A stretch of DNA of 59,970 nucleotides from Thermoplasmata archaeon (GTDB lineage: Archaea > Thermoplasmatota > Thermoplasmata > Lutacidiplasmatales > UBA184). The stretch covers positions 1-59,970 of the forward strand of contig JAGWLG010000021.1 of assembly GCA_028864975.1 (NCBI GenBank). Reading direction: 5' to 3'. Below, piece by piece: positions 13,949 through 22,878 of the stretch (positions are counted from its first letter, which is position 1; every line of letters begins with the position of its first letter). A model generated the notes under the pieces. The model was not told where the DNA came from. It was given only the letters and a program-made list of their open reading frames with translations, and did not search any database. The translations under genes were made by a program, and so were the position numbers.

Positions 13949-16900
13949 ATGGTCCCCGCTGCGCACGCGCGCTCCCCGCTGGCCGCCCTGACCGCCCTCT
14001 CTACCCTCCCAGTTCGGCGTGCCGTTCGCACGGCCCTATGGGTCCTCGTGGTCATGGTCATGCTCGCGCCGACCTCCTTGGCGCGTCCGGTCCTCCCTTC
14101 CGCGCCGACCGCTCCTTCGGTCGCCCCCTCCGGTCCCCTCGTGGGTGCCGCTTCGGCCTCCCCATCGGGCACCTCCGGGCTTGTCGCGCATTCGGCGCAC
14201 GTCGGAGCCGCGGTAGTGGTCCCAAGCGTGCGAGATGTCCTTCGCGATCACCCCGTCGCTTGTCCGCTCACGCCCCTGCCCGCGCCCTCCTCGGACCTCC
14301 GCACGGGGGTCTCCTCTTCCGTCCCCTCCTCTCTGCCCCTCTCCTTGGTCCCCGCGACCATGCCCTGTCAAGCTCCCACCTCGGCCTCGGGAGGTACCGA
14401 CACGAGCCGTCTGGTTCCCACGACCTCGATTGGTGCGTCCTCGGGGTCGACCCACTTCCAAGGCCACCCGGACACCACGTCCTGGGCGCCGGGTTGGCAG
14501 GGGATCACCAGTGCGTCTTCGGGCTACGTCCCTCCCGATGTGTCCATGGCCGTGGGCCGGACCCAGGTGGTCGAAGCGGTCAATGACGTCATGCAGGTCT
14601 GGGCGAAGAACGGCACCGTCTTGGCCACCCCCTTCAGCTTCAGTACGATCTTCAATGTGGGGAACGCCGCTTACGGCGACCCTCAAGTCCTCTACGACAC
14701 TCGAGGCGGCGGACAGTTCCTCCTCTCGGTCGACGACTTCACCTACGGCACCGTGTGGCTCGGGATCTCCGTGACGAACGACTCCTTGGGCGGCTGGTAC
14801 GTCTACAACCTCACCGCCATCCCGGCGAACGACTTCTTGGACCGCCCTGTGCTAGGGGTCAGCGACACGGTCATCGCCTACGGCGGGAACGTTTTCACCA
14901 ACGTGGGGGGCTTCGTCCAGGCCCAGTGGTTCGCCTGGGACCGTGCGGTGCTCGAGTCCGGGGCCGCAGCCACGGGTTGGTACTGGTACAGCGCGGCCGA
15001 TTCTGCTGTCCACCCGGTGCCCCAGTGGGGAGCGAACACGACCGCTACCCAGTACTACGTCTGCACCACCTGTGGATCCGGGCAAATCCTGGTCTACTGG
15101 GTCCAGTGGGTCCCCGGGGTCAGGGGGCCCTGGCTCAACTCGACGGTCTACAAGTGGCCCGCCCTCACGGCCCCGCCCGACGCGCCGCAACCGGGGACCT
15201 CGACCACCGTCTCGGTCGCCCTGAGCGGCAACCAGGAGATGACCGGGATGTGGGCGAACGGGCTGCTCTACTTCTCCTTCGAGAACTCGTGCTCCGGCCC
15301 TCAGGGATGCCCTTGGTACGTGAGCATCAACACCGCGACGAACACCGTGGTCCAGAACTACAGCTACGCGGGCGCGCCGGGGAACCATGTCTACTACCCG
15401 GCGACCGGCACCGACCTCAACGGCGACCAGCTCATGTTCCATGGTTGGTCCTCGACCTCGGTGTACCCGACGCTCGAGATGCTCTCGCGGAACCGCACCT
15501 ACGCGGCGAACGCCTACGAGGGAGCCAACGAGGTCTACGGGACGGCGTCGGACAGCTACTGCGGTAGCGGGGCGTGCCGTTACGGGGACTACTTCACGGT
15601 CGCTCCCGACCCTGACAACCCCAGCGTCGCCTGGGGCGCCGGGGAGTACATCGTTTCTGGTCTTACGTGGGCCACGTGGATCGGGAGCGTCTCCCAGGGC
15701 GTCGTGCCGCTCGCCCCCCCCACGGCCTCCCCCGCCAAGCTCCACGCCGATGTCGGGGTCCCGGCCAAGGAGACCCTCTCGGACCTCAACAGCCAATGCA
15801 ATATCCGCCAGATCTGGTGGTGCACGGTCCAGTACGACTACGGAGATGGCAGCGCCTACAACGTGACCAGCTGCGCAGGGGCGCTGGCGGGCCTCTACCC
15901 GAACATCCTGAACGAGACCCACACCTACTGGGGCATCGGGAACTACACCGCGGGGGGCGCGAGCAGCTACTGGGACGAGTACTCCGGTGGCGTCTGTGTC
16001 CCAGCCAACTCCCAGGGAGGGAACGCGCTCCCCGAGATCCCCGTGGCGGTCAACAAGGACCCCTTCCTCACCCCGTGGACGCAGAACGCCACCTCCATCG
16101 ATGTGGGGCAGTCGGTGACCTTCAGCTCGTACGCGGCGGGGGGGTGGCCCACGTACACCTTCGCGGCCTACCAGAGCTCCCCCAACTTCGGTTGTAGCGG
16201 ATATGTCTCGGGCAACATGCTCGGGGTCACCTGCGCCCCGACCGCGGCGGGGACCTACCACATCTGGGGCTCCACCACCGACTCCGTCGGCGGGCTCTCG
16301 CCCACGCTCTACGCCCCTGCGGTCGTCGTCTACGGCCGGACCAGCGTCTCGATCGGCTGGAGCGCCACCACGATCGACGTGGGGCAGACCGTGACCGCCA
16401 CGGCGACCGCGTCGGGCGGTACGGGGACCTACACCAGCTACGCTTGGACGCCCTCCTCGGTGAACCTGGGATGCGCGGTTTCCACCACCTCCACGGACGG
16501 CTGCACCCCTACCGCGTCCGGGAGCTACACCATCGGCGCGAAGGTCACCGATAGCAATGGCGGAGTCTCTCCGCTCGCGACGAGCGGGACCCTGACCGTC
16601 GATTCCGCCGTCACCGCGAGCACCCCCGCCCCCAACAAGTGGTCCGTGGACGTCGGAGGGACCGTGACCTTCTCGACCACGCCCGGCGGCGGCTCCGGGA
16701 CCTACTCGAGCTACAGCTGGACCCCCTCCTCCACGAACTTGGGGTGCGCCACCTCCACCACCGCGTCGATCACCTGTATTCCCACCGCGGCGGGGAGCTT
16801 CACGGTCTCCGTCACGGTGACGGACTCGAACGGAGGGACCGCTACCTCCACCTCGGCCTCCTACACCGTCTTCGCGGTGCCCACCGCCACGACCCCGAGC

Positions 16901-19033
16901 GCGAACTTGACCTCGGTGGACATGGGGCAGGGGGTCACCTTCTCCACGACCGTCTCGGGCGGCTCCGGGGGTACGACGATCTCCTGGTCCGGCCTCACCA
17001 CGATCGGGTGCGCCTCGTCGAACATCTCCCTGCTCGCGTGCGTTCCGACGATCGCGGCCACGTCCACGATCACGGCGACGGTCACCGACAGCAACGGAGG
17101 GACCTCGACGAGCGCGAGCTTCTCGTTCACGGTCTACGCGGACCCAACGGCCTCCACCCCCGTTGCGACCCCCTCGACCGTGGAAGCGGGTCAGGCCACC
17201 TCCTTCGCGACGACCGCGAGCGGAGGCCACGGGACCTACAGCTACTATTGGTCGGGGCTCCCCACCGGCTGCTCGACCTCTAACGTGGACCCGCTCCCCT
17301 GCACGCCCAGCGCGGCCGGGACGAGCTCCGTCGCGGTCACGGTGATCGACGGGAACGGTTACCCTGTCCTCTCCTCCGCGCTCTCCTTCACGGTGAGCGC
17401 CGGTCCCTCGGTCACGACCCCGACGGCGACCCCCGCGGCCGTCGACGTGGGGCAGGGGACCACCCTCGCGGTGACGGCCTCCGGCGGCTCGGGCTCGTAC
17501 ACCTACGCATGGTCCGGCCTCCCCCCCGGCTGCAGCTCGTCCGCGACCTCGTTCATGTGCACCCCGACGGCGGCGGGGACGTTCCACGTCGGGATGAACA
17601 TCACGGACTCGGTGGGCGGCGCGAGCAAGAGCGGGCTCCTGACCCTCGTCGTGTCGCCCGCCCTGACGGTCCCGACCCCCTCGGTCGCCCCCTACCTGGT
17701 CGATGTCGGCGTCGCCGCGACGCTGACCTCCGCGGTCGGTGGAGGGGCCGGCGGGAACACCTACACCTGGTCCGGCCTCCCCTCCGGTTGCACCGGGGCC
17801 AACGCGGCCACGACCCCCTGCACGCCCTCGGCGGCGGGGGCCGCCTCGGTCACCCTCAAGGTCGTCGACGCGAACGGCTGGAGCGTGACGAGCGCCGCCT
17901 TCTCCTGGAACGTTCTCGCCGCTCCGACGCTTTCGACGCCTACCGGTAGCCCGAACCCCGTGACCGTCGGCGCCTCGCTGAGGATCTCTACGACGGCGAC
18001 CGTGGCCGCCCCCTGGGCCACCTACAGCTGGACCAGCCTCCCGACAGGGTGCACCGCCTCCAACGCGACCTCGATCACGTGCACTCCGACAGCCGCCGGG
18101 ACCTTCGCGACGAAGGTCTCGGTGGTCGACGGGGGCCATGGGAGCGCGACCAGTTCGGCGGCGTCGCTCGTGGTCAACCCCTCAGGGTCGGGCGGTCTCA
18201 CGGTGGGCCTCGTGGCGAGCCCCGCCACCCTCTACACAGGACAGACCACGACGCTCACCGGGACGGTCAGCGGCGGGAGCGCCCCTTACACCTACAGCTG
18301 GACCGGCCTCCCCGGCGGTTGCTCGAGCGCCAACACCGCGACCCTCTCGTGCACCCCGACCGCGTCGGGGACGGTCTCGGTGACCCTTTCCGTGACCGAC
18401 ACCGCAGGCCACTCAGGCTCCGCGAGCGCGTCCCTGACGGTCACCGCCTCTTCCGGGACCTTGACCGTCTCGCTCTCCGCGAGCCCGACGACGGTCACCA
18501 TAGGACAGTCGTCCGCCTTGACCGCGACGGTCAGCGCCGGGACGGCCCCGTACACCTACACCTGGACGGGGCTTCCGAGCGGCTGTTCGAGCTCGAACTC
18601 CGCGACCCTGTCGTGCGCCCCGGCCGCCTCCGGCACGTTCACCATCCACGTGAACGTGGCCGATAGCGCCGGCAAGTCAGGGTCGGCCCAGACCACGCTC
18701 ACGGTGAACCCCGGCCCCACCGCGGGCGGCAGCGGGGCTAACGTCTTCACCAACCCGTACCTCATTGTGGGCCTGATCGTGGCCGTCGTGGCGGTCCTCC
18801 TCCTGGTGCTCCTCCTGCGCAAGAAGAGACCCAAGCCGGCGGCGGCTCCCGAGCCGGCTCCTGCAGTCGGCGCGGCGGCCCCCTCCGCGGATGTCGCGGC
18901 GAGCCCGCCCCCCCCGCCCGCGCCCTCCCCTCCACCTCCTCCGGCGAGCCCTCCTGCCGAAGCTCCTCCTCCGCCGCCCGCGCCGGCGATGGGGGAGCCC
19001 CCCGCGCCGTGGCCGCCGCCCCCCATGGGATAG
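13949..19033 (+). CDS. Large membrane-anchored surface protein (beta-propeller-like head, PKD/Ig-like repeats, TM, Pro-rich tail)
   Basis: Signal-like hydrophobic segment; head domain with PPDVSMAVG...RYGDY motifs; about 10 repeats of DVGQ..TF..TASGG.G.Y.Y.WSGLP.GC; TM YLIVGLIVAVVAVLLLVLLL followed by RKKR. Confidence 0.85.
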   Translation: MVPAAHARSPLAALTALSTLPVRRAVRTALWVLVVMVMLAPTSLARPVLPSAPTAPSVAPSGPLVGAASASPSGTSGLVAHSAHVGAAVVVPSVRDVLRDHPVACPLTPLPAPSSDLRTGVSSSVPSSLPLSLVPATMPCQAPTSASGGTDTSRLVPTTSIGASSGSTHFQGHPDTTSWAPGWQGITSASSGYVPPDVSMAVGRTQVVEAVNDVMQVWAKNGTVLATPFSFSTIFNVGNAAYGDPQVLYDTRGGGQFLLSVDDFTYGTVWLGISVTNDSLGGWYVYNLTAIPANDFLDRPVLGVSDTVIAYGGNVFTNVGGFVQAQWFAWDRAVLESGAAATGWYWYSAADSAVHPVPQWGANTTATQYYVCTTCGSGQILVYWVQWVPGVRGPWLNSTVYKWPALTAPPDAPQPGTSTTVSVALSGNQEMTGMWANGLLYFSFENSCSGPQGCPWYVSINTATNTVVQNYSYAGAPGNHVYYPATGTDLNGDQLMFHGWSSTSVYPTLEMLSRNRTYAANAYEGANEVYGTASDSYCGSGACRYGDYFTVAPDPDNPSVAWGAGEYIVSGLTWATWIGSVSQGVVPLAPPTASPAKLHADVGVPAKETLSDLNSQCNIRQIWWCTVQYDYGDGSAYNVTSCAGALAGLYPNILNETHTYWGIGNYTAGGASSYWDEYSGGVCVPANSQGGNALPEIPVAVNKDPFLTPWTQNATSIDVGQSVTFSSYAAGGWPTYTFAAYQSSPNFGCSGYVSGNMLGVTCAPTAAGTYHIWGSTTDSVGGLSPTLYAPAVVVYGRTSVSIGWSATTIDVGQTVTATATASGGTGTYTSYAWTPSSVNLGCAVSTTSTDGCTPTASGSYTIGAKVTDSNGGVSPLATSGTLTVDSAVTASTPAPNKWSVDVGGTVTFSTTPGGGSGTYSSYSWTPSSTNLGCATSTTASITCIPTAAGSFTVSVTVTDSNGGTATSTSASYTVFAVPTATTPSANLTSVDMGQGVTFSTTVSGGSGGTTISWSGLTTIGCASSNISLLACVPTIAATSTITATVTDSNGGTSTSASFSFTVYADPTASTPVATPSTVEAGQATSFATTASGGHGTYSYYWSGLPTGCSTSNVDPLPCTPSAAGTSSVAVTVIDGNGYPVLSSALSFTVSAGPSVTTPTATPAAVDVGQGTTLAVTASGGSGSYTYAWSGLPPGCSSSATSFMCTPTAAGTFHVGMNITDSVGGASKSGLLTLVVSPALTVPTPSVAPYLVDVGVAATLTSAVGGGAGGNTYTWSGLPSGCTGANAATTPCTPSAAGAASVTLKVVDANGWSVTSAAFSWNVLAAPTLSTPTGSPNPVTVGASLRISTTATVAAPWATYSWTSLPTGCTASNATSITCTPTAAGTFATKVSVVDGGHGSATSSAASLVVNPSGSGGLTVGLVASPATLYTGQTTTLTGTVSGGSAPYTYSWTGLPGGCSSANTATLSCTPTASGTVSVTLSVTDTAGHSGSASASLTVTASSGTLTVSLSASPTTVTIGQSSALTATVSAGTAPYTYTWTGLPSGCSSSNSATLSCAPAASGTFTIHVNVADSAGKSGSAQTTLTVNPGPTAGGSGANVFTNPYLIVGLIVAVVAVLLLVLLLRKKRPKPAAAPEPAPAVGAAAPSADVAASPPPPPAPSPPPPPASPPAEAPPPPPAPAMGEPPAPWPPPPMG

Positions 19034-19078: not shown

Positions 19079-20893
19079 CTACCGGATCCGGTCCTCGCCG
19101 GGCCGCCGCTCCTTTCGCTCCGGCGAAGCCGGTGGAGGTGGGGGCGGAGCGGGGGCGAGGGGCGGAGCCGCTCGTGGGCGGTCGGGGTGGCTCACTACCG
19201 TGGGAAGCTCTGCCAGCGCCTCGCGCTCCTTGCTCGTGACCCTCAGGAAGAGGACCGGGCTCGCGAAAAGCTCGAAGCCCCGCCCCTGGGGATCATCCCG
19301 GACCTTGACCGACATCTGCGGGGGCAACCCCGAGACGTCGACCGCCTTCCCCTCGTTCTGCCAGGAGTGGATCATCGCCCCGACCAGCTTCTCGAGTGCC
19401 TCGCCATGCCCCGATGCGAAGAGGTTCACCGAGGCCACGCGTTTCTCCTCCGCGTCGTACACGACCACGGGCATGGTCTGCGCCTGCTTCTCCCGGTCCG
19501 CGCGCACGAGCGCCACCTCACGGGCGAGCGCCTCCCGGACCTGTTCGGAGTCGTCCATGTTCTTCTTCAGACGGGCGATCTCCTGGTCCCGTTCGAGCAG
19601 GCGCTGGTTCAGTCCCTGGACGATCTGCTTGATGGCCACAATGTCCGCGCCCTGCGTGTTGAACAGCCCGCGGTAGGCGTCGTGCTCGTGCGAAGTCGTC
19701 TCGTGCTCGTGCTCGGGCAGTTCGTGCTCGTGCTCGGCGACCTCGTGCTGGTGTTCGGGGAGAGGATGCTCGTGCTCCAGCGGTTCGTGCTTGTGCTCCG
19801 GAAGGTCGTGTTCATGGTCCACCACCTCGTGCTCGTGCTCGGCGATGGGATGCTCGTGCTCCGGTAGCGGGTGCTCGTGCTCCTCGGCCGGATGTTTGTG
19901 CTCGGGGAGCGCATGGTCGTGCTGGGGGAGATCGTGTTGGTGCTCTGGCAGGTCGTGCTCGTGTTCGGGGACCTCGTGCTCGTGGGGAGGGACCTCTCCC
20001 GCAGGGAGGGGCTCGGAGGGCGCGGCCGTCTCTCCATCGTCCGAATCGACGGCGGTCACGGTCTCCGGTTCTACGTCGCCTTGGACCTCCGCGGGGACGT
20101 CTGGCGAGGCCTCCGCGGTCGCCTCGACGGTCCCATCGGCGGTCGAGCCTGACGCCTCGGCGACGATCTGCGGGACCTGCTCAGGAGTTGCCTCGGGCAC
20201 CGGCTCCGGCTCCCCCTCGGGAGGCGCGGCCCCCCCCTCGCTGAGCACGGGGGGAGTGGGCGCAATGGCGGGCTCGGCGACGGTGGGTGGGGCCGCCACC
20301 GCGGCGCGAGGCGCTCCGATCGCTGGCGACCCAGGGGCTGACCATCCTGGAGGAGGGGGGGGAAGCGGATGCCCCACGGGGGGAGGGGCATGTCCCGAGA
20401 TGAGCGCCGAGATGGGCACGTCGGGCGCGGTGGGAACGGCCGTGTTCGGGAGCGGGGGGGAGGAGGGAGAAGGAGGGGAAGCGGTGGAAGGGGACGGCCC
20501 GGCCGGGCCCCCGGGGGGGGCCGAGGCAGTCGCAGGACGGACCGGGGGAGGGGGGACCGCGGTGGCTGCGGAGGGAGGGAACCGGGATGCGCCTCCCGGC
20601 GCCCCTCGGGGAGTGCCCTGGTCCGAGACCCACGGAGGAACGGAGGGGTCCGGGGCTCCCGGCGGGCGGGGAGGAGGCTTCGGAAGAGGGACGTTGTGGA
20701 CGCGGTTCTTGTGGGTGTCCAGCATACGGGAGGGTAGCTCCCGACCGCAGAACTCGCAAAGGGAGAACTCCAAGGGCTGGCTTCCGCTCGCTCCCGCCTG
20801 GGGACCGTAGCCCCCAGGATACCCCTGGGCCACGCTTCCCTGACGGAGGTGGGGGGGAAAAGGCTGACGGCTGCCGGGGGCGGCCTCGCCCAA
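19079..20893 (-). CDS. Cytoplasmic protein: C2H2-like Zn finger, Pro-rich linker, 15 HxH heptad repeats, coiled coil, C-terminal domain
   Basis: CEFC-x11-H-x4-H; the HxH repeat is read directly from the ORF. Start uncertain (TTG 20893 or GTG 20833). Confidence 0.75.
   Translation of the reverse strand: MGEAAPGSRQPFPPHLRQGSVAQGYPGGYGPQAGASGSQPLEFSLCEFCGRELPSRMLDTHKNRVHNVPLPKPPPRPPGAPDPSVPPWVSDQGTPRGAPGGASRFPPSAATAVPPPPVRPATASAPPGGPAGPSPSTASPPSPSSPPLPNTAVPTAPDVPISALISGHAPPPVGHPLPPPPPGWSAPGSPAIGAPRAAVAAPPTVAEPAIAPTPPVLSEGGAAPPEGEPEPVPEATPEQVPQIVAEASGSTADGTVEATAEASPDVPAEVQGDVEPETVTAVDSDDGETAAPSEPLPAGEVPPHEHEVPEHEHDLPEHQHDLPQHDHALPEHKHPAEEHEHPLPEHEHPIAEHEHEVVDHEHDLPEHKHEPLEHEHPLPEHQHEVAEHEHELPEHEHETTSHEHDAYRGLFNTQGADIVAIKQIVQGLNQRLLERDQEIARLKKNMDDSEQVREALAREVALVRADREKQAQTMPVVVYDAEEKRVASVNLFASGHGEALEKLVGAMIHSWQNEGKAVDVSGLPPQMSVKVRDDPQGRGFELFASPVLFLRVTSKEREALAELPTVVSHPDRPRAAPPLAPAPPPPPPASPERKERRPGEDRIR
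19678..19984 (-). repeat. 21-bp-period coding repeat encoding 15 x HxHxxxx
   Basis: HEHEVPE HEHDLPE HQHDLPQ HDHALPE HKHPAEE HEHPLPE HEHPIAE HEHEVVD HEHDLPE HKHEPLE HEHPLPE HQHEVAE HEHELPE HEHETTS HEHDAYR. Confidence 0.9.
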
Positions 20894-20920: not shown

Positions 20921-21658
20921 TCAGTGGGCCGTGGCGAGAAGGATCATCGTGGGGATGAGCGAGACCACGATGCCGACCCACCCAAGGGCGATGCCCAGCA
21001 CGAGGAGCTTGTAGGGACGGTCCATGGGGATACGGAAGGGGAGGGTCCAGCGGTCGCTCCATCGCTCTGCCACGAGCGCGACCCCGGCCAGGGTCCAGGC
21101 CGAGGCCACCAGAACCACGGGGACCAAGATCATGCTGACCGAGCTTCCGAGAAGGTAGCCGGCGGCGGTCCCGGTCGCGGACCCTGTAGCGGACCCCGTC
21201 GCGGACCCTGTCGCCGTCCCCTGCGCGAACCCGAAGCGGATCGTCGCCGTGATGACCACCGTGCCCACGGCAGCGAAGGCGACCCCGAGGATCGAGAAAC
21301 GACGTGGAAGGAAGCGGAGCTCGAAGCTCAGGATGACGAAGAGCCCCGCGAGGAAGAGCGCGATGGCGATGGCGTAGAAGACCGGGGAGTGGAACAGGAG
21401 CTCGTTGACCTGGAGCGGGTTCACGGTCAGGTAGGTCAGGTTGAAGAGCAGGGCGAAGAGCAGGTACTCCGCGTTCTTGGACGTGACCGGGTCCAGGCGC
21501 TCGTTGTGCATGTCCGACTCCGCGTGGTCGGCGGTCACCATCGCCCGGAGCGCGTTCGCGCGCGAGGTCGCGATGAACCACGTGAGCCCGGCGGCGACGG
21601 CCGCCGGGAAGAGCAGCGTCGTGATCAGGTAGGATTCCAGGGGATTGAGGGAGAACAT
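20921..21658 (-). CDS. Polytopic membrane protein (about 6-7 TM) of unknown function
   Basis: Multiple hydrophobic segments; internal GTAT-GSAT-GSAT-GSAT-GTAA repeat; start trimmed to ATG 21658. Confidence 0.7.
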   Translation of the reverse strand: MFSLNPLESYLITTLLFPAAVAAGLTWFIATSRANALRAMVTADHAESDMHNERLDPVTSKNAEYLLFALLFNLTYLTVNPLQVNELLFHSPVFYAIAIALFLAGLFVILSFELRFLPRRFSILGVAFAAVGTVVITATIRFGFAQGTATGSATGSATGSATGTAAGYLLGSSVSMILVPVVLVASAWTLAGVALVAERWSDRWTLPFRIPMDRPYKLLVLGIALGWVGIVVSLIPTMILLATAH

Positions 21659-21762
21659 GGTCCCGGCCTCGACGCCCCGCCCAAAGGGAGGGCACGGGCG
21701 ACTAATGGAACTTGTCGCCCGCCAGGAGGAGGGGTTCCTCCCGCATTCGACCGAAGTCCCCC

Positions 21763-22878
21763 CTACCACCGGAGCATCGCGGCGAGGCCGCCGTAGCCCT
21801 TGAGCAGGGCCCTCCCCTCGTCCGTGGCCGAGGAGATGAGGTGGGCCTTGGCCCCCGCGGCCTCCGCCTGGGCCACGAGCTCGGGGGCATCGTCACGGTC
21901 CTCGGAGATCAGCAGCGCGTCGACGCGACCCGAGGAGAGAGCCTCCTTCACCTGGGACTCTCCATAGGTGGCTTTCGAGCCGGTCCGGACCTCGGTCAAG
22001 AAGCGGCCCAGGACGGCCTTCTCTCTCGCCATCGCCATGTCCTGCCGCGTCTGCGAGGCGGCCTCCGAGAGCTCCTTGAGACCGTGCTCGTTGGTGTACC
22101 CTGTGGAGAAGAGGGGGGTCACGATCTTCTGCCGGATCCGGTAGTCGAGCTCCCCGCGCTCCACGAAGTCCTCCTTCATCGCCCCAGGCCCCCCCACGAA
22201 GACCCCGAGGACGTTGTCGATCTCGGAGAGGAAGATGCGGTTCGACCGCTCACCGACCTTCCTCAACCAACCGAGGGTCTCGCCTTCCATGATGCGCTGG
22301 AAGCGCTGCGCACTCTGTCCACCCATGTGGTGCTTTCCCATGAGATTACTTTCGAAAGAGTCGACTTCAGCGATTCTAGTCCCACGGAGCCATCCAAAAC
22401 TGGCCTCGGCTCGATCCATGACGATGAGACCGTACACCTCCGGGTCGCGCGCCATCGCCTCCAGGGGGTCGAGCACGAAACCGGAGCCGCACCGGTAGAG
22501 GTAGGTCTGGACCGGGTCAGGGGGTTCGATAATGATCTCCTCGTCCCCTCCCACGAAACAAGCGAGACCGTGAGGAGGGGTCTCCTTGAACTGACGGAGG
22601 AGCGAGGTGAGCCGACCTAGCGCGGTCGTGATCGCGGTTCGGGTCTGGCGGCTCTTGACGTTCTCGGCCTGGACCGCTTCCGACTGGATGCGGGCCGTCG
22701 CATCCTCGACGCGTCGGCTGGGCGGCACGTAGAGCGTGACCATCTCGTTCGGACGGCCCTTGACCTCGGAGAGGTGCTTCAGCAACCGTCGAAGACGGAG
22801 ACGAGAAGCCTCAGGGGTCGTCCCGGCCCCGCCGAGTCAGTCGGAAGGAGCGGGGGCGGAGGAAGAGTTTGTCGGCAT
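21763..22878 (-). CDS. prf1: Class-1 peptide chain release factor aRF1 (eRF1 family), with an in-frame TGA at codon 14 if the SD-linked ATG is used
   Basis: GGQ in HHMGGQSAQRFQR, NIKS-like NVKS, YxCxxxF as YRCGSGF, LYVPP. ATG 22878 is preceded by GGTGA and is in frame; TGA at 22837-22839. The product call is strong, the start is uncertain (ORF-track start is TTG 22785). Confidence 0.85.

What the first reader, a model, noticed from the sequence alone, without database searches (positions are those of the whole stretch)
19678..19984. Fifteen HxH motifs at an exact 7-residue period, running into a coiled coil
Seen: 30 His residues in strict HxHxxxx register with acidic and Pro spacers, between a C2H2-like finger plus Pro-rich linker and a coiled coil plus globular domain; no signal peptide. 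Established: HxH motifs from three chains coordinate a column of metal ions in phage tail-fibre needles (T4 gp37, gp12). Inference: an oligomeric metal-stapled rod or a Ni/Zn/Fe storage or sensing protein. The synonymous codon variation suggests protein-level selection rather than recent slippage.
Basis: partly seen in the sequence, partly recalled or inferred. Interest (0 to 1): 0.7.

Follow-up and report, generated by a model that had tools for sequence, protein, structure and literature searches.

The report
Phage-fibre-like His-x-His rod in archaeon
A Thermoplasmata archaeon encodes a cytoplasmic zinc-finger and coiled-coil protein carrying fifteen exact seven-residue His-x-His repeats, whose pattern matches the metal-stapled needles of phage tail fibres, so it is probably a metal-binding rod or strip of unknown cellular role.

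Summary
There are 15 HxH motifs (30 His) at an exact 7-residue period, at window 19682-19984 on the minus strand. The gene is real: 19079-20833, 584 aa, with a GTG start rather than the upstream TTG.

The architecture is a C2H2-like finger, a 233-aa Pro-rich acidic linker, the array, a 67-residue helix, an unclassified ~95-aa end domain and a short basic Pro-rich tail.

Twelve orthologues from Thermoplasmata MAGs keep the exact period, with 2, 5, 7, 12, 14 or 15 copies. Across 83 units, H1 and H3 are invariant, position 5 is aliphatic, position 6 is mostly Pro and position 7 mostly Glu. Orthologous units differ only synonymously.

A scan of viral contigs showed that period-7 HxH arrays are common in phage tail-fibre proteins, with the same H-x-H-x-aliphatic-(Pro) pattern. 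One Pro/Glu-containing viral array runs straight into a coiled coil.

A three-chain model with Zn passed its controls (0.58 against 0.08). It is parallel and in register, and the last two HxH motifs lie in the interface. The monomer model leaves the array unstructured.

Best reading (0.45): a coiled-coil-registered, metal-stapled rod. The main rival is a disordered metal sponge. The biological role is unknown.

This scan already met a five-repeat orthologue (e1-913428).

The parts
19079..20833 (-). Whole gene, 584 codons plus stop, GTG start
   Evidence: ORF. The start was fixed by the orthologue alignment and the Atlas record. Orthologues were found in 4 genera of one Thermoplasmata family.
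20684..20773 (-). C2H2-like zinc finger (residues 21-50; C26, C29, H41, H46; C-x2-C-x11-H-x4-H)
   Evidence: The ligand residues are conserved in at least 90% of the aligned orthologues; the one row lacking them is a database protein called from a late start. AF2 predicts a beta-beta-alpha fold with pLDDT 90-92. A profile of the region hits designed C2H2 fingers (2i13 at 1.8e-7, 1mey at 8e-4). No Pfam hit.
19985..20683 (-). Pro-rich, acidic linker (residues 51-283), predicted to be disordered, with a conserved NVPLP...PDPS.PPW.SDQ stretch after the finger
   Evidence: 66 Pro, pI 4.05. Block-mean pLDDT is 36-57 from residue 61 on, and 72 over residues 51-60 next to the finger. The conserved motif is seen.
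19682..19984 (-). 15 x HxH heptad array (residues 284-384), consensus H-[EQD]-H-[EDP]-[LV]-P-E
   Evidence: H1 and H3 are invariant in 83 of 83 units from 12 orthologues. Position 5 is aliphatic in 78 of 83, position 6 is Pro in 60 of 83 and position 7 is Glu in 60 of 83.
19481..19681 (-). Coiled-coil helix (residues 385-451), joined to the last HxH with no length variation among orthologues
   Evidence: AF2 predicts a single helix with block-mean pLDDT 70-97, 85 or more over residues 391-440. The three-chain model is parallel and in register, with a 3-4 spaced interface over residues 382-447. There are no indels at the junction.
19199..19480 (-). C-terminal alpha+beta domain (residues 452-545), unclassified
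   Evidence: AF2 pLDDT 87.5. No convincing fold match: Foldseek PDB E>=0.1, VIA Z<5, Atlas TM<0.5. Only 43 clusters among 1.84 billion representatives.
19082..19198 (-). Basic, Pro-rich C-terminal tail (residues 546-584)
   Evidence: pI 11.25, 13 Pro. Low pLDDT. Present only in the closest orthologues.

Best explanation
The array is a multi-site divalent-metal-binding rod element of the kind used in phage tail-fibre needles, here placed in a cellular, cytoplasmic protein. The 67-residue helix after the array forms a parallel, in-register coiled coil (modelled as a trimer). This lines up the HxH heptads of the chains unit by unit. In each unit H1, H3 and the aliphatic residue at position 5 face the axis. 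The HxH dyads of the chains together chelate one ion per layer: six His if the assembly is a trimer, as in fibre needles. Positions 2, 4 and 7 (Glu/Asp/Gln) and Pro6 face the solvent or make the turn. The copy number (2 to 15) sets the length of the rod. The zinc finger, on a long flexible linker, and the C-terminal domain sit at the two ends. What is shown: the array, its conservation, its purifying selection, its likeness in pattern to fibre arrays, and the model's support for self-association. What is inferred: metal binding, which metal (Zn or Fe most likely), the trimer, and order along the whole array. The cellular role is unknown. My guess is a metal-dependent stiffening or lengthening of a tether.
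For: - The period is strict in every orthologue, so all length changes are whole units. H1 and H3 are invariant in 83 of 83 units, and position 5 is aliphatic in 78 of 83.
- Selection is purifying: 8 synonymous and 0 non-synonymous changes in 56 orthologous codons, comparable with the folded domains (24:2).
- Viral period-7 arrays in 43 distinct ORFs of 200 aa or more read H-[TS]-H-[TS]-[VLIM/G]-[P/N/G]-[S/A/N], with 5-13 copies. The examples examined carry Collar, Gp10_C or Prophage_tail domains and match the gp37 tip 2XGF.
- The solved gp37 needle reads HSHSV, HTHTV and HGHTI.
- HxH from three chains binds Fe octahedrally in gp37, pyocin fibres and spike proteins (PMC6116203).
- A viral ORF beside tail-fibre genes has (HTHPLEP)n running straight into a coiled coil.
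- Three-chain model of residues 354-452 with 4 Zn: score 0.58, best of 3 controls 0.08. That mark was reached by 20 of 30 proteins solved as pairs of one chain and by 1 of 23 solved as single chains. The runs agree in at least 87% of contacts and the partner's pLDDT is at least 72. The confident interface includes L372, P373, H375, H377, H382, E383 and H384, which are the H1/H3/position-5 residues of the last units.
- The junction from the last HxH to the coiled coil has no indels in any orthologue.
- The peptide Ac-HEHEHEHEH-NH2 binds Zn(II) with Kd 1.5e-7 M and Fe(II) with Kd 1.9e-5 M (PMC11938343).
Against: - The AF2 monomer model gives the array no secondary structure, with block-mean pLDDT 42-56.
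- In the three-chain model only the last ~2.5 units touch confidently. Units 11-12 are not named in the interface.
- Coiled coils often pass such tests through likeness to solved structures, and the dimer alternative was not run.
- The outward-facing positions are Glu/Asp rather than the Thr/Ser of fibres. That gives about nine acidic side chains per trimer layer, which may oppose close packing.
- There is no sequence homology to any fibre protein.
- No metal-handling gene is conserved next to the gene.
Confidence: 0.45

Rival explanations
1. The array is a disordered, high-capacity metal sponge, buffer or chaperone. Each HxH(E) unit, or pair of neighbouring units, binds an ion on its own, as in Hpn, the His stretches of HypB/SlyD/UreE, or the His-rich loop of ZnuA. 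The coiled coil only multimerises the protein, and no rod forms.
For: The array is coil with low pLDDT in the monomer model. His/Glu peptides bind Zn, Fe and Mn without a fold (PMC11938343). Another Thermoplasmata genome (G115) builds the His-rich loop of a ZnuA zinc-binding protein from HEHHECD heptads, next to a DtxR-type repressor. Copy number varies freely among relatives.
Against: The period is strict, position 5 is a conserved aliphatic residue and position 6 is Pro, and the spacing to the coiled coil is fixed. These are features of a defined repeat structure, not of a sponge. HypA and urease were not found in the own genome (89.6% complete), and the only match to the [NiFe]-hydrogenase large-subunit family covers 70 of its 508 positions. 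There is no conserved metal-gene neighbourhood.
Confidence: 0.3
2. The array is a pH-responsive switch. Thirty His interleaved with 33 Asp/Glu change charge near pH 6-6.5, so the segment collapses or extends with cytoplasmic pH. This would resemble hisactophilin (from memory) and would need no metal.
For: The composition is 30 His, 33 Asp/Glu and 2 Lys/Arg, with array pI 5.2. Some Thermoplasmata are acidophiles (general knowledge; the habitat of these MAGs is unknown).
Against: The i, i+2 His dyad with an aliphatic residue at i+4 is a specific metal-site pattern shared with fibre needles. A charge switch would not need exact HxH spacing or invariant His at every position.
Confidence: 0.1
3. 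The array is a passive spacer or a protein-protein docking repeat unrelated to metals or pH.
For: Paralogues carry a much longer coiled coil where this protein has the array, so the array may simply supply length.
Against: A spacer would not keep 166 of 166 His invariant through 2-15 copies in 12 orthologues.
Confidence: 0.1

Closest known systems
HxH needle of phage tail fibres and spikes (T4 gp37 tip PDB 2XGF, gp12, lambda/Rac Stf, R-pyocin fibres, P2 gpV), including the period-7 arrays found here in IMG/VR tail-fibre ORFs
   Same: Both are tandem H-x-H-x-aliphatic units. Pro is the commonest residue at position 6. The viral set has the same exact 7-residue period with 5-13 copies. One viral example leads into a coiled coil. 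In solved fibres three chains give six His to one Fe or Zn.
   Different: There is no sequence homology. Positions 2, 4 and 7 are Glu/Asp/Gln here, against Thr/Ser/Asn/Ala in fibres. There is no collar or receptor-binding domain. The gene is cellular, has no signal peptide and sits beside aRF1. The solved needles shown have a period of about 9, not 7.
His-rich loop of ZnuA-type zinc-binding proteins
   Same: It is an acidic His-rich stretch that binds Zn. In genome G115 of the same class the loop is itself a heptad array, (HEHHECD)n.
   Different: The loop is inserted in a periplasmic solute-binding fold and contains Cys and HH pairs. The present protein has no ZnuA domain.
His-rich Ni/Zn storage and chaperone tails (Hpn, HypB, SlyD, UreE, CooJ); from memory
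   Same: Cytoplasmic, very His-rich, and able to bind many ions per chain.
   Different: Those stretches are irregular, lack a fixed period and conserved hydrophobic or Pro positions, and accompany Ni enzymes. HypA and urease were not found in this genome.
Earlier finding of this scan, e1-913428 (five-repeat orthologue in another Thermoplasmata genome)
   Same: Same family and the same architecture (finger, HxH heptads, coiled coil, unclassified end domain) (compare G009 and G014).
   Different: This copy has 15 units, the most seen. This report adds the copy-number series, the per-position conservation, the self-association model and the link to viral period-7 fibre arrays.

Membership tests
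Phage tail-fibre HxH needle (gp37/gp12/Stf type) | Sequence or profile similarity to fibre tip or collar domains | tested here: not met
   The array gave no PDB sequence hit at E<=10. There is no Pfam Collar, Gp10_C or other fibre family. The viral arrays do hit these families.
Phage tail-fibre HxH needle (gp37/gp12/Stf type) | Tandem H-x-H-x-aliphatic units | tested here: met
   Here: H1 and H3 100%, position 5 aliphatic in 78 of 83 units. Viral period-7 set: position 5 V/L/I/M in 64%, Pro commonest at position 6. gp37 reads HSHSV, HTHTV, HGHTI.
Phage tail-fibre HxH needle (gp37/gp12/Stf type) | Parallel homotrimer with His6 metal sites on the axis | tested here: inconclusive
   The three-chain model with Zn passes (0.58 against 0.08) with H375, H377, H382 and H384 in the interface. 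Only the last units are involved, no dimer was run, and metal geometry is not reported.
Phage tail-fibre HxH needle (gp37/gp12/Stf type) | Virion or tailocin gene context | tested here: not met
   The neighbours are aRF1, a membrane protein and a PKD surface protein. Orthologues lie in varied cellular contexts. Four clear paralogue groups (and a more divergent fifth copy) share the end domain.
Classical C2H2 zinc finger (N-terminal part only) | C-x2-4-C-x12-H-x3-5-H with a beta-beta-alpha fold | tested here: inconclusive
   The spacing is C-x2-C-x11-H-x4-H and the ligands are conserved in at least 90% of the aligned orthologues. AF2 gives beta-beta-alpha with pLDDT 90-92. The profile hits designed C2H2 fingers, though each single match is weak. 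No Pfam zf-C2H2 hit.
Alpha-helical coiled-coil heptads (for the array itself) | Helix-compatible sequence with hydrophobic a/d positions | tested here: not met
   Eleven of the 14 full units contain Pro. AF2 predicts no helix before residue 385.
Hpn/HypB-type Ni storage | Association with Ni-enzyme maturation | tested here: not met
   HypA and urease alpha were not found in the own genome (89.6% complete). There is only a 70-position partial match to the NiFe hydrogenase family.
ZnuA His-rich loop | Embedded in the ZnuA solute-binding fold | tested here: not met
   No ZnuA domain in this protein. Compare G115.

The most novel reading that the evidence does not exclude
A cellular archaeal protein uses the phage-fibre HxH needle inside the cytoplasm as a metal-gated stalk. 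Three chains zip into a rod holding a straight column of up to 15 ions only when metal is available. This would couple metal status to the distance or stiffness between a nucleic-acid-binding zinc finger and the cargo of the C-terminal domain. It would be the first non-viral, intracellular use of this motif and the longest such ion column known.
Probability: 0.15. Interest if true: 0.75.

Novelty: new variant of a known kind. Interest (0 to 1): 0.5.

Why it matters
HxH metal staples are known only from virion fibres and spikes, where they are thought to register three chains during folding. Finding the same repeat grammar in a conserved cytoplasmic archaeal protein matters for three reasons. 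The repeat here is acidified, expanded to 15 units and fused to a coiled coil. First, it would show that the motif is a general building block rather than a viral speciality. Second, it would offer a natural, tunable scaffold for linear arrays of metal ions. Third, it gives a first handle on a Thermoplasmata-specific family of coiled-coil proteins that has no annotation at all.

Tried and rejected
- **Family scans.** Pfam and NCBIfam gave only sub-threshold coiled-coil noise on the whole protein, its parts and an orthologue.
- **Fold of the end domain.** Foldseek PDB (best E 0.11), VIA-align wide (best Z 4.9) and the Atlas (TM<0.5) gave no convincing match, so the fold stays unclassified.
- **Language-model look-alikes.** The Atlas found nothing usable for the array.
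- **Word-index search with the array.** The 5.8-billion-protein search returned only orthologues in the near-length range and nothing among shorter proteins. The longer range was not searched.
- **Genome-contig scans.** One scan was empty. The second returned three Thermoplasmata MAG records, which served only to name the lineage.
- **VIT1 iron-transporter link.** VIT1 lies next to one paralogue and near one orthologue. The link was rejected because orthologues of that paralogue have a beta-lactamase-fold gene there instead.
- **Array as an alpha-helical continuation of the coiled coil.** Rejected because Pro occurs in 11 of the 14 full units.
- **Single-chain beta-solenoid with three units per turn.** Rejected because copy numbers (2, 5, 7, 14) are not multiples of three, and TRF finds super-periods of 2 and 4 units, not 3.
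- **Literature.** Searches for the MAG and sample identifiers found nothing.

Full report
**1. The observation**

The minus-strand frame 19079-20893 is open. It contains HxH at 15 positions, each exactly 7 residues from the last. That is 30 of the protein's 38 His, and the spacers are rich in Glu, Asp and Pro. The array lies at window 19682-19984.

At the DNA level the 21-bp period matches at only 65%. Units with the same peptide differ at 4-5 of 21 nt in this gene.

A six-frame scan of the whole 3.6-Mb assembly finds no second array. The only other hit is a three-unit match in an unrelated frame.

The true start is the GTG at 20833, giving 584 aa. Every orthologue starts at the equivalent MAQG(Y/F)PGG, and the ESM Atlas holds the protein from that residue. 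There is no signal peptide or membrane segment.

**2. Anatomy** (584-residue numbering)

AF2 with an alignment of ten orthologues gives the following parts.
- Residues 21-50: a beta-beta-alpha finger with pLDDT 90-92. Its spacing is C-x2-C-x11-H-x4-H, and its profile hits designed C2H2 fingers.
- Residues 51-283: a linker predicted to be disordered, with 66 Pro and pI 4.05.
- Residues 284-384: the array, predicted as coil with block-mean pLDDT 42-56.
- Residues 385-451: one long helix, block-mean pLDDT 70-97 and 85 or more over residues 391-440.
- Residues 452-545: a compact alpha+beta domain. Modelled alone it reaches pLDDT 87.5.
- Residues 546-584: a basic, Pro-rich tail.

The end domain matches no Pfam or NCBIfam family. 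It has no convincing structural neighbour.

**3. Relatives**

The organism is a Thermoplasmata archaeon, going by the titles of related MAG records.

The end domain defines a very small family: 43 clusters among 1.84 billion representatives. They sort into five groups, the HxH orthologues and four paralogue groups. The own genome holds a member of each paralogue group, plus a more divergent fifth copy on contig C124. The paralogues have a long coiled coil and sometimes a finger, but no His array.

Only the orthologue group carries HxH heptads. Copy numbers are 2, 2, 2, 5, 5, 5, 7, 12, 12, 14, 14 and 15, always at the exact period. A thirteenth orthologue (G004) has only two HxH motifs, far apart and not in register.

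Over 83 units the positions read as follows:
- Position 1: His in 83 of 83.
- Position 2: E, Q or D in 78 of 83.
- Position 3: His in 83 of 83.
- Position 4: E, D or P.
- Position 5: aliphatic in 78 of 83 (L 54, V 15).
- Position 6: Pro in 60 of 83.
- Position 7: Glu in 60 of 83.

The stretch from the last HxH into the helix has no indel in any orthologue.

Between two close genomes, the orthologous units show 8 synonymous and 0 non-synonymous changes in 56 codons. The folded C-terminal part shows 24:2. The array is therefore maintained by selection on the protein and is not a fresh slippage product.

One database orthologue (P0006) seemed to lack the finger. Its frame in fact continues upstream through the finger.

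**4. Context**

Upstream on the same strand lie a 282-aa membrane protein of no known family and aRF1. Downstream, convergent, lies a 1694-aa PKD surface protein.

The membrane-protein gene is adjacent in four related genomes. It is not adjacent in G003, whose neighbours are RibD_C, HSP20 and a methyltransferase.

A VIT1 transporter near one orthologue and next to one paralogue looked like a lead. It is not conserved. Context therefore gives no function.

**5. How rare is the motif?**

A DNA pattern for four HxH units at period 7 was run on 401 genomes of the class.
- It hit this genome and three orthologue-bearing genomes.
- It hit three irregular His-rich stretches.
- It hit one independent array in genome G115: (HEHHECD)n filling the His-rich loop of a ZnuA zinc-binding protein, next to a DtxR-type repressor. 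That gives a local precedent for heptad His arrays as metal binders.

A five-unit version of the same pattern on IMG/VR viral contigs gave a different picture.
- Poly-His runs and out-of-frame simple repeats were removed.
- 43 distinct ORFs of 200 aa or more remained, with strict HxH heptads in 5-13 copies.
- Their consensus is H-[TS]-H-[TS]-[VLIM or G]-[P/N/G/S]-[S/A/N].

The examples examined are tail-fibre or baseplate proteins. They carry Collar, Gp10_C or Prophage_tail domains, and one matches the T4 gp37 tip 2XGF and other solved fibres.

The gp37 needle itself reads HSHSV, HTHTV and HGHTI, with a spacing of about nine.

In such fibres the HxH motifs of three chains bind one Fe (Zn in gp12) octahedrally (PMC6116203).

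One viral ORF, beside tail-fibre genes, has (HTHPLEP)n running directly into a coiled coil, the same order as here.

The archaeal array thus shares the period, the His dyad, the aliphatic fifth position and the preference for Pro at the sixth with fibre needles. It differs in having acidic rather than hydroxyl residues at the other positions.

**6. Self-association**

A model of three copies of residues 354-452 with four Zn scored 0.58, against 0.08 for the best of three controls.
- That mark was reached by 20 of 30 proteins solved as pairs of one chain, and by 1 of 23 solved as single chains.
- The runs agree in at least 87% of contacts, and the partner's pLDDT is at least 72.
- The interface is parallel and in register (401 with 401, 398 with 398, and so on) and runs at 3-4 spacing from 382 to 447.
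- It also includes L372, P373, H375, H377, H382, E383 and H384. These are the position-5, H1 and H3 residues of the last units.

There are caveats. Coiled coils can pass from likeness to solved ones. A dimer was not tried. The earlier units in the construct are not confidently placed.

**7. Reading**

The strict period, the invariant dyad with an aliphatic partner two residues on, the fixed junction to a parallel coiled coil, and the match in pattern to fibre needles all point the same way. The most likely reading is a registered, inter-chain, metal-stapled rod whose length is set by copy number (0.45).

A His/Glu nonapeptide binds Zn(II) at 1.5e-7 M and Fe(II) at 1.9e-5 M (PMC11938343). Metal binding as such is therefore chemically expected.

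The main rival is a disordered metal sponge, like Hpn or the ZnuA loop (0.3). A pH switch (0.1) and a passive spacer (0.1) are less likely.

Nickel storage is disfavoured. HypA and urease were not found in this 89.6%-complete genome.

What the whole protein does in the cell is unknown.

**8. Novelty**

No family, name or paper covers this protein. This scan noted a five-repeat orthologue earlier and judged it a modest curiosity (e1-913428). My results agree, and they add the link to viral period-7 fibre arrays, which makes the rod reading more concrete.

I rate it a new variant of a known kind, with interest 0.5.

Noticed in passing
G115:C34:23047-23615 (L030 1548-2114) and G115:C89 (L031 930-1793): A ZnuA-family zinc-binding protein in another Thermoplasmata genome has its His-rich loop built from at least nine near-identical HEHHECD heptads. 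The assembly breaks inside the repeat, at two contig ends. A DtxR/MntR-type repressor gene lies just upstream.
   Followed up: partly
L068 3-230 (IMGVR_UViG_3300047361_000438): A phage ORF, cut by the contig end, has (HTHPLEP)n heptads that run straight into a ~40-residue coiled coil and a stop. Five tail-fibre-type genes follow it.
   Followed up: partly
IMG/VR loci L032-L151: Strict period-7 HxH arrays (5-13 units, H-T/S-H-T/S-aliphatic-x-S/A/N) are widespread in metagenomic phage tail-fibre and baseplate proteins. The solved needles seen here have a period of about 9. A period-7 needle structure may not yet exist.
   Followed up: partly
window 20921-21769 (-): A 282-aa multi-pass membrane protein of no known family, with a (GSAT)n loop, lies directly upstream of the His-array gene. 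It is adjacent in four related genomes (58-73% identity) but not in three others.
   Followed up: partly
G000 contigs C59:37082-38383, C32:82605-84203, C97:96578-97357, C6:37496-38410, C124:16047-18179: Five copies share the ~95-aa C-terminal domain. Four fall into clear paralogue groups, each behind a long coiled coil, and one has its own C2H2-like finger. The C124 copy is more divergent. The whole family has only 43 clusters in 1.84 billion representatives and no annotation.
   Followed up: partly
L017 7560-8000: The database protein P0006 (385 aa) is called from a late start. The frame continues upstream through the zinc finger, so the finger is present in this orthologue too.
   Followed up: yes
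window 23019-45035 (-) and 13949-19033 (+): A 7338-codon open frame and a 1694-aa PKD-repeat surface protein flank the locus. Neither was examined beyond a Pfam scan of the second.
   Followed up: no
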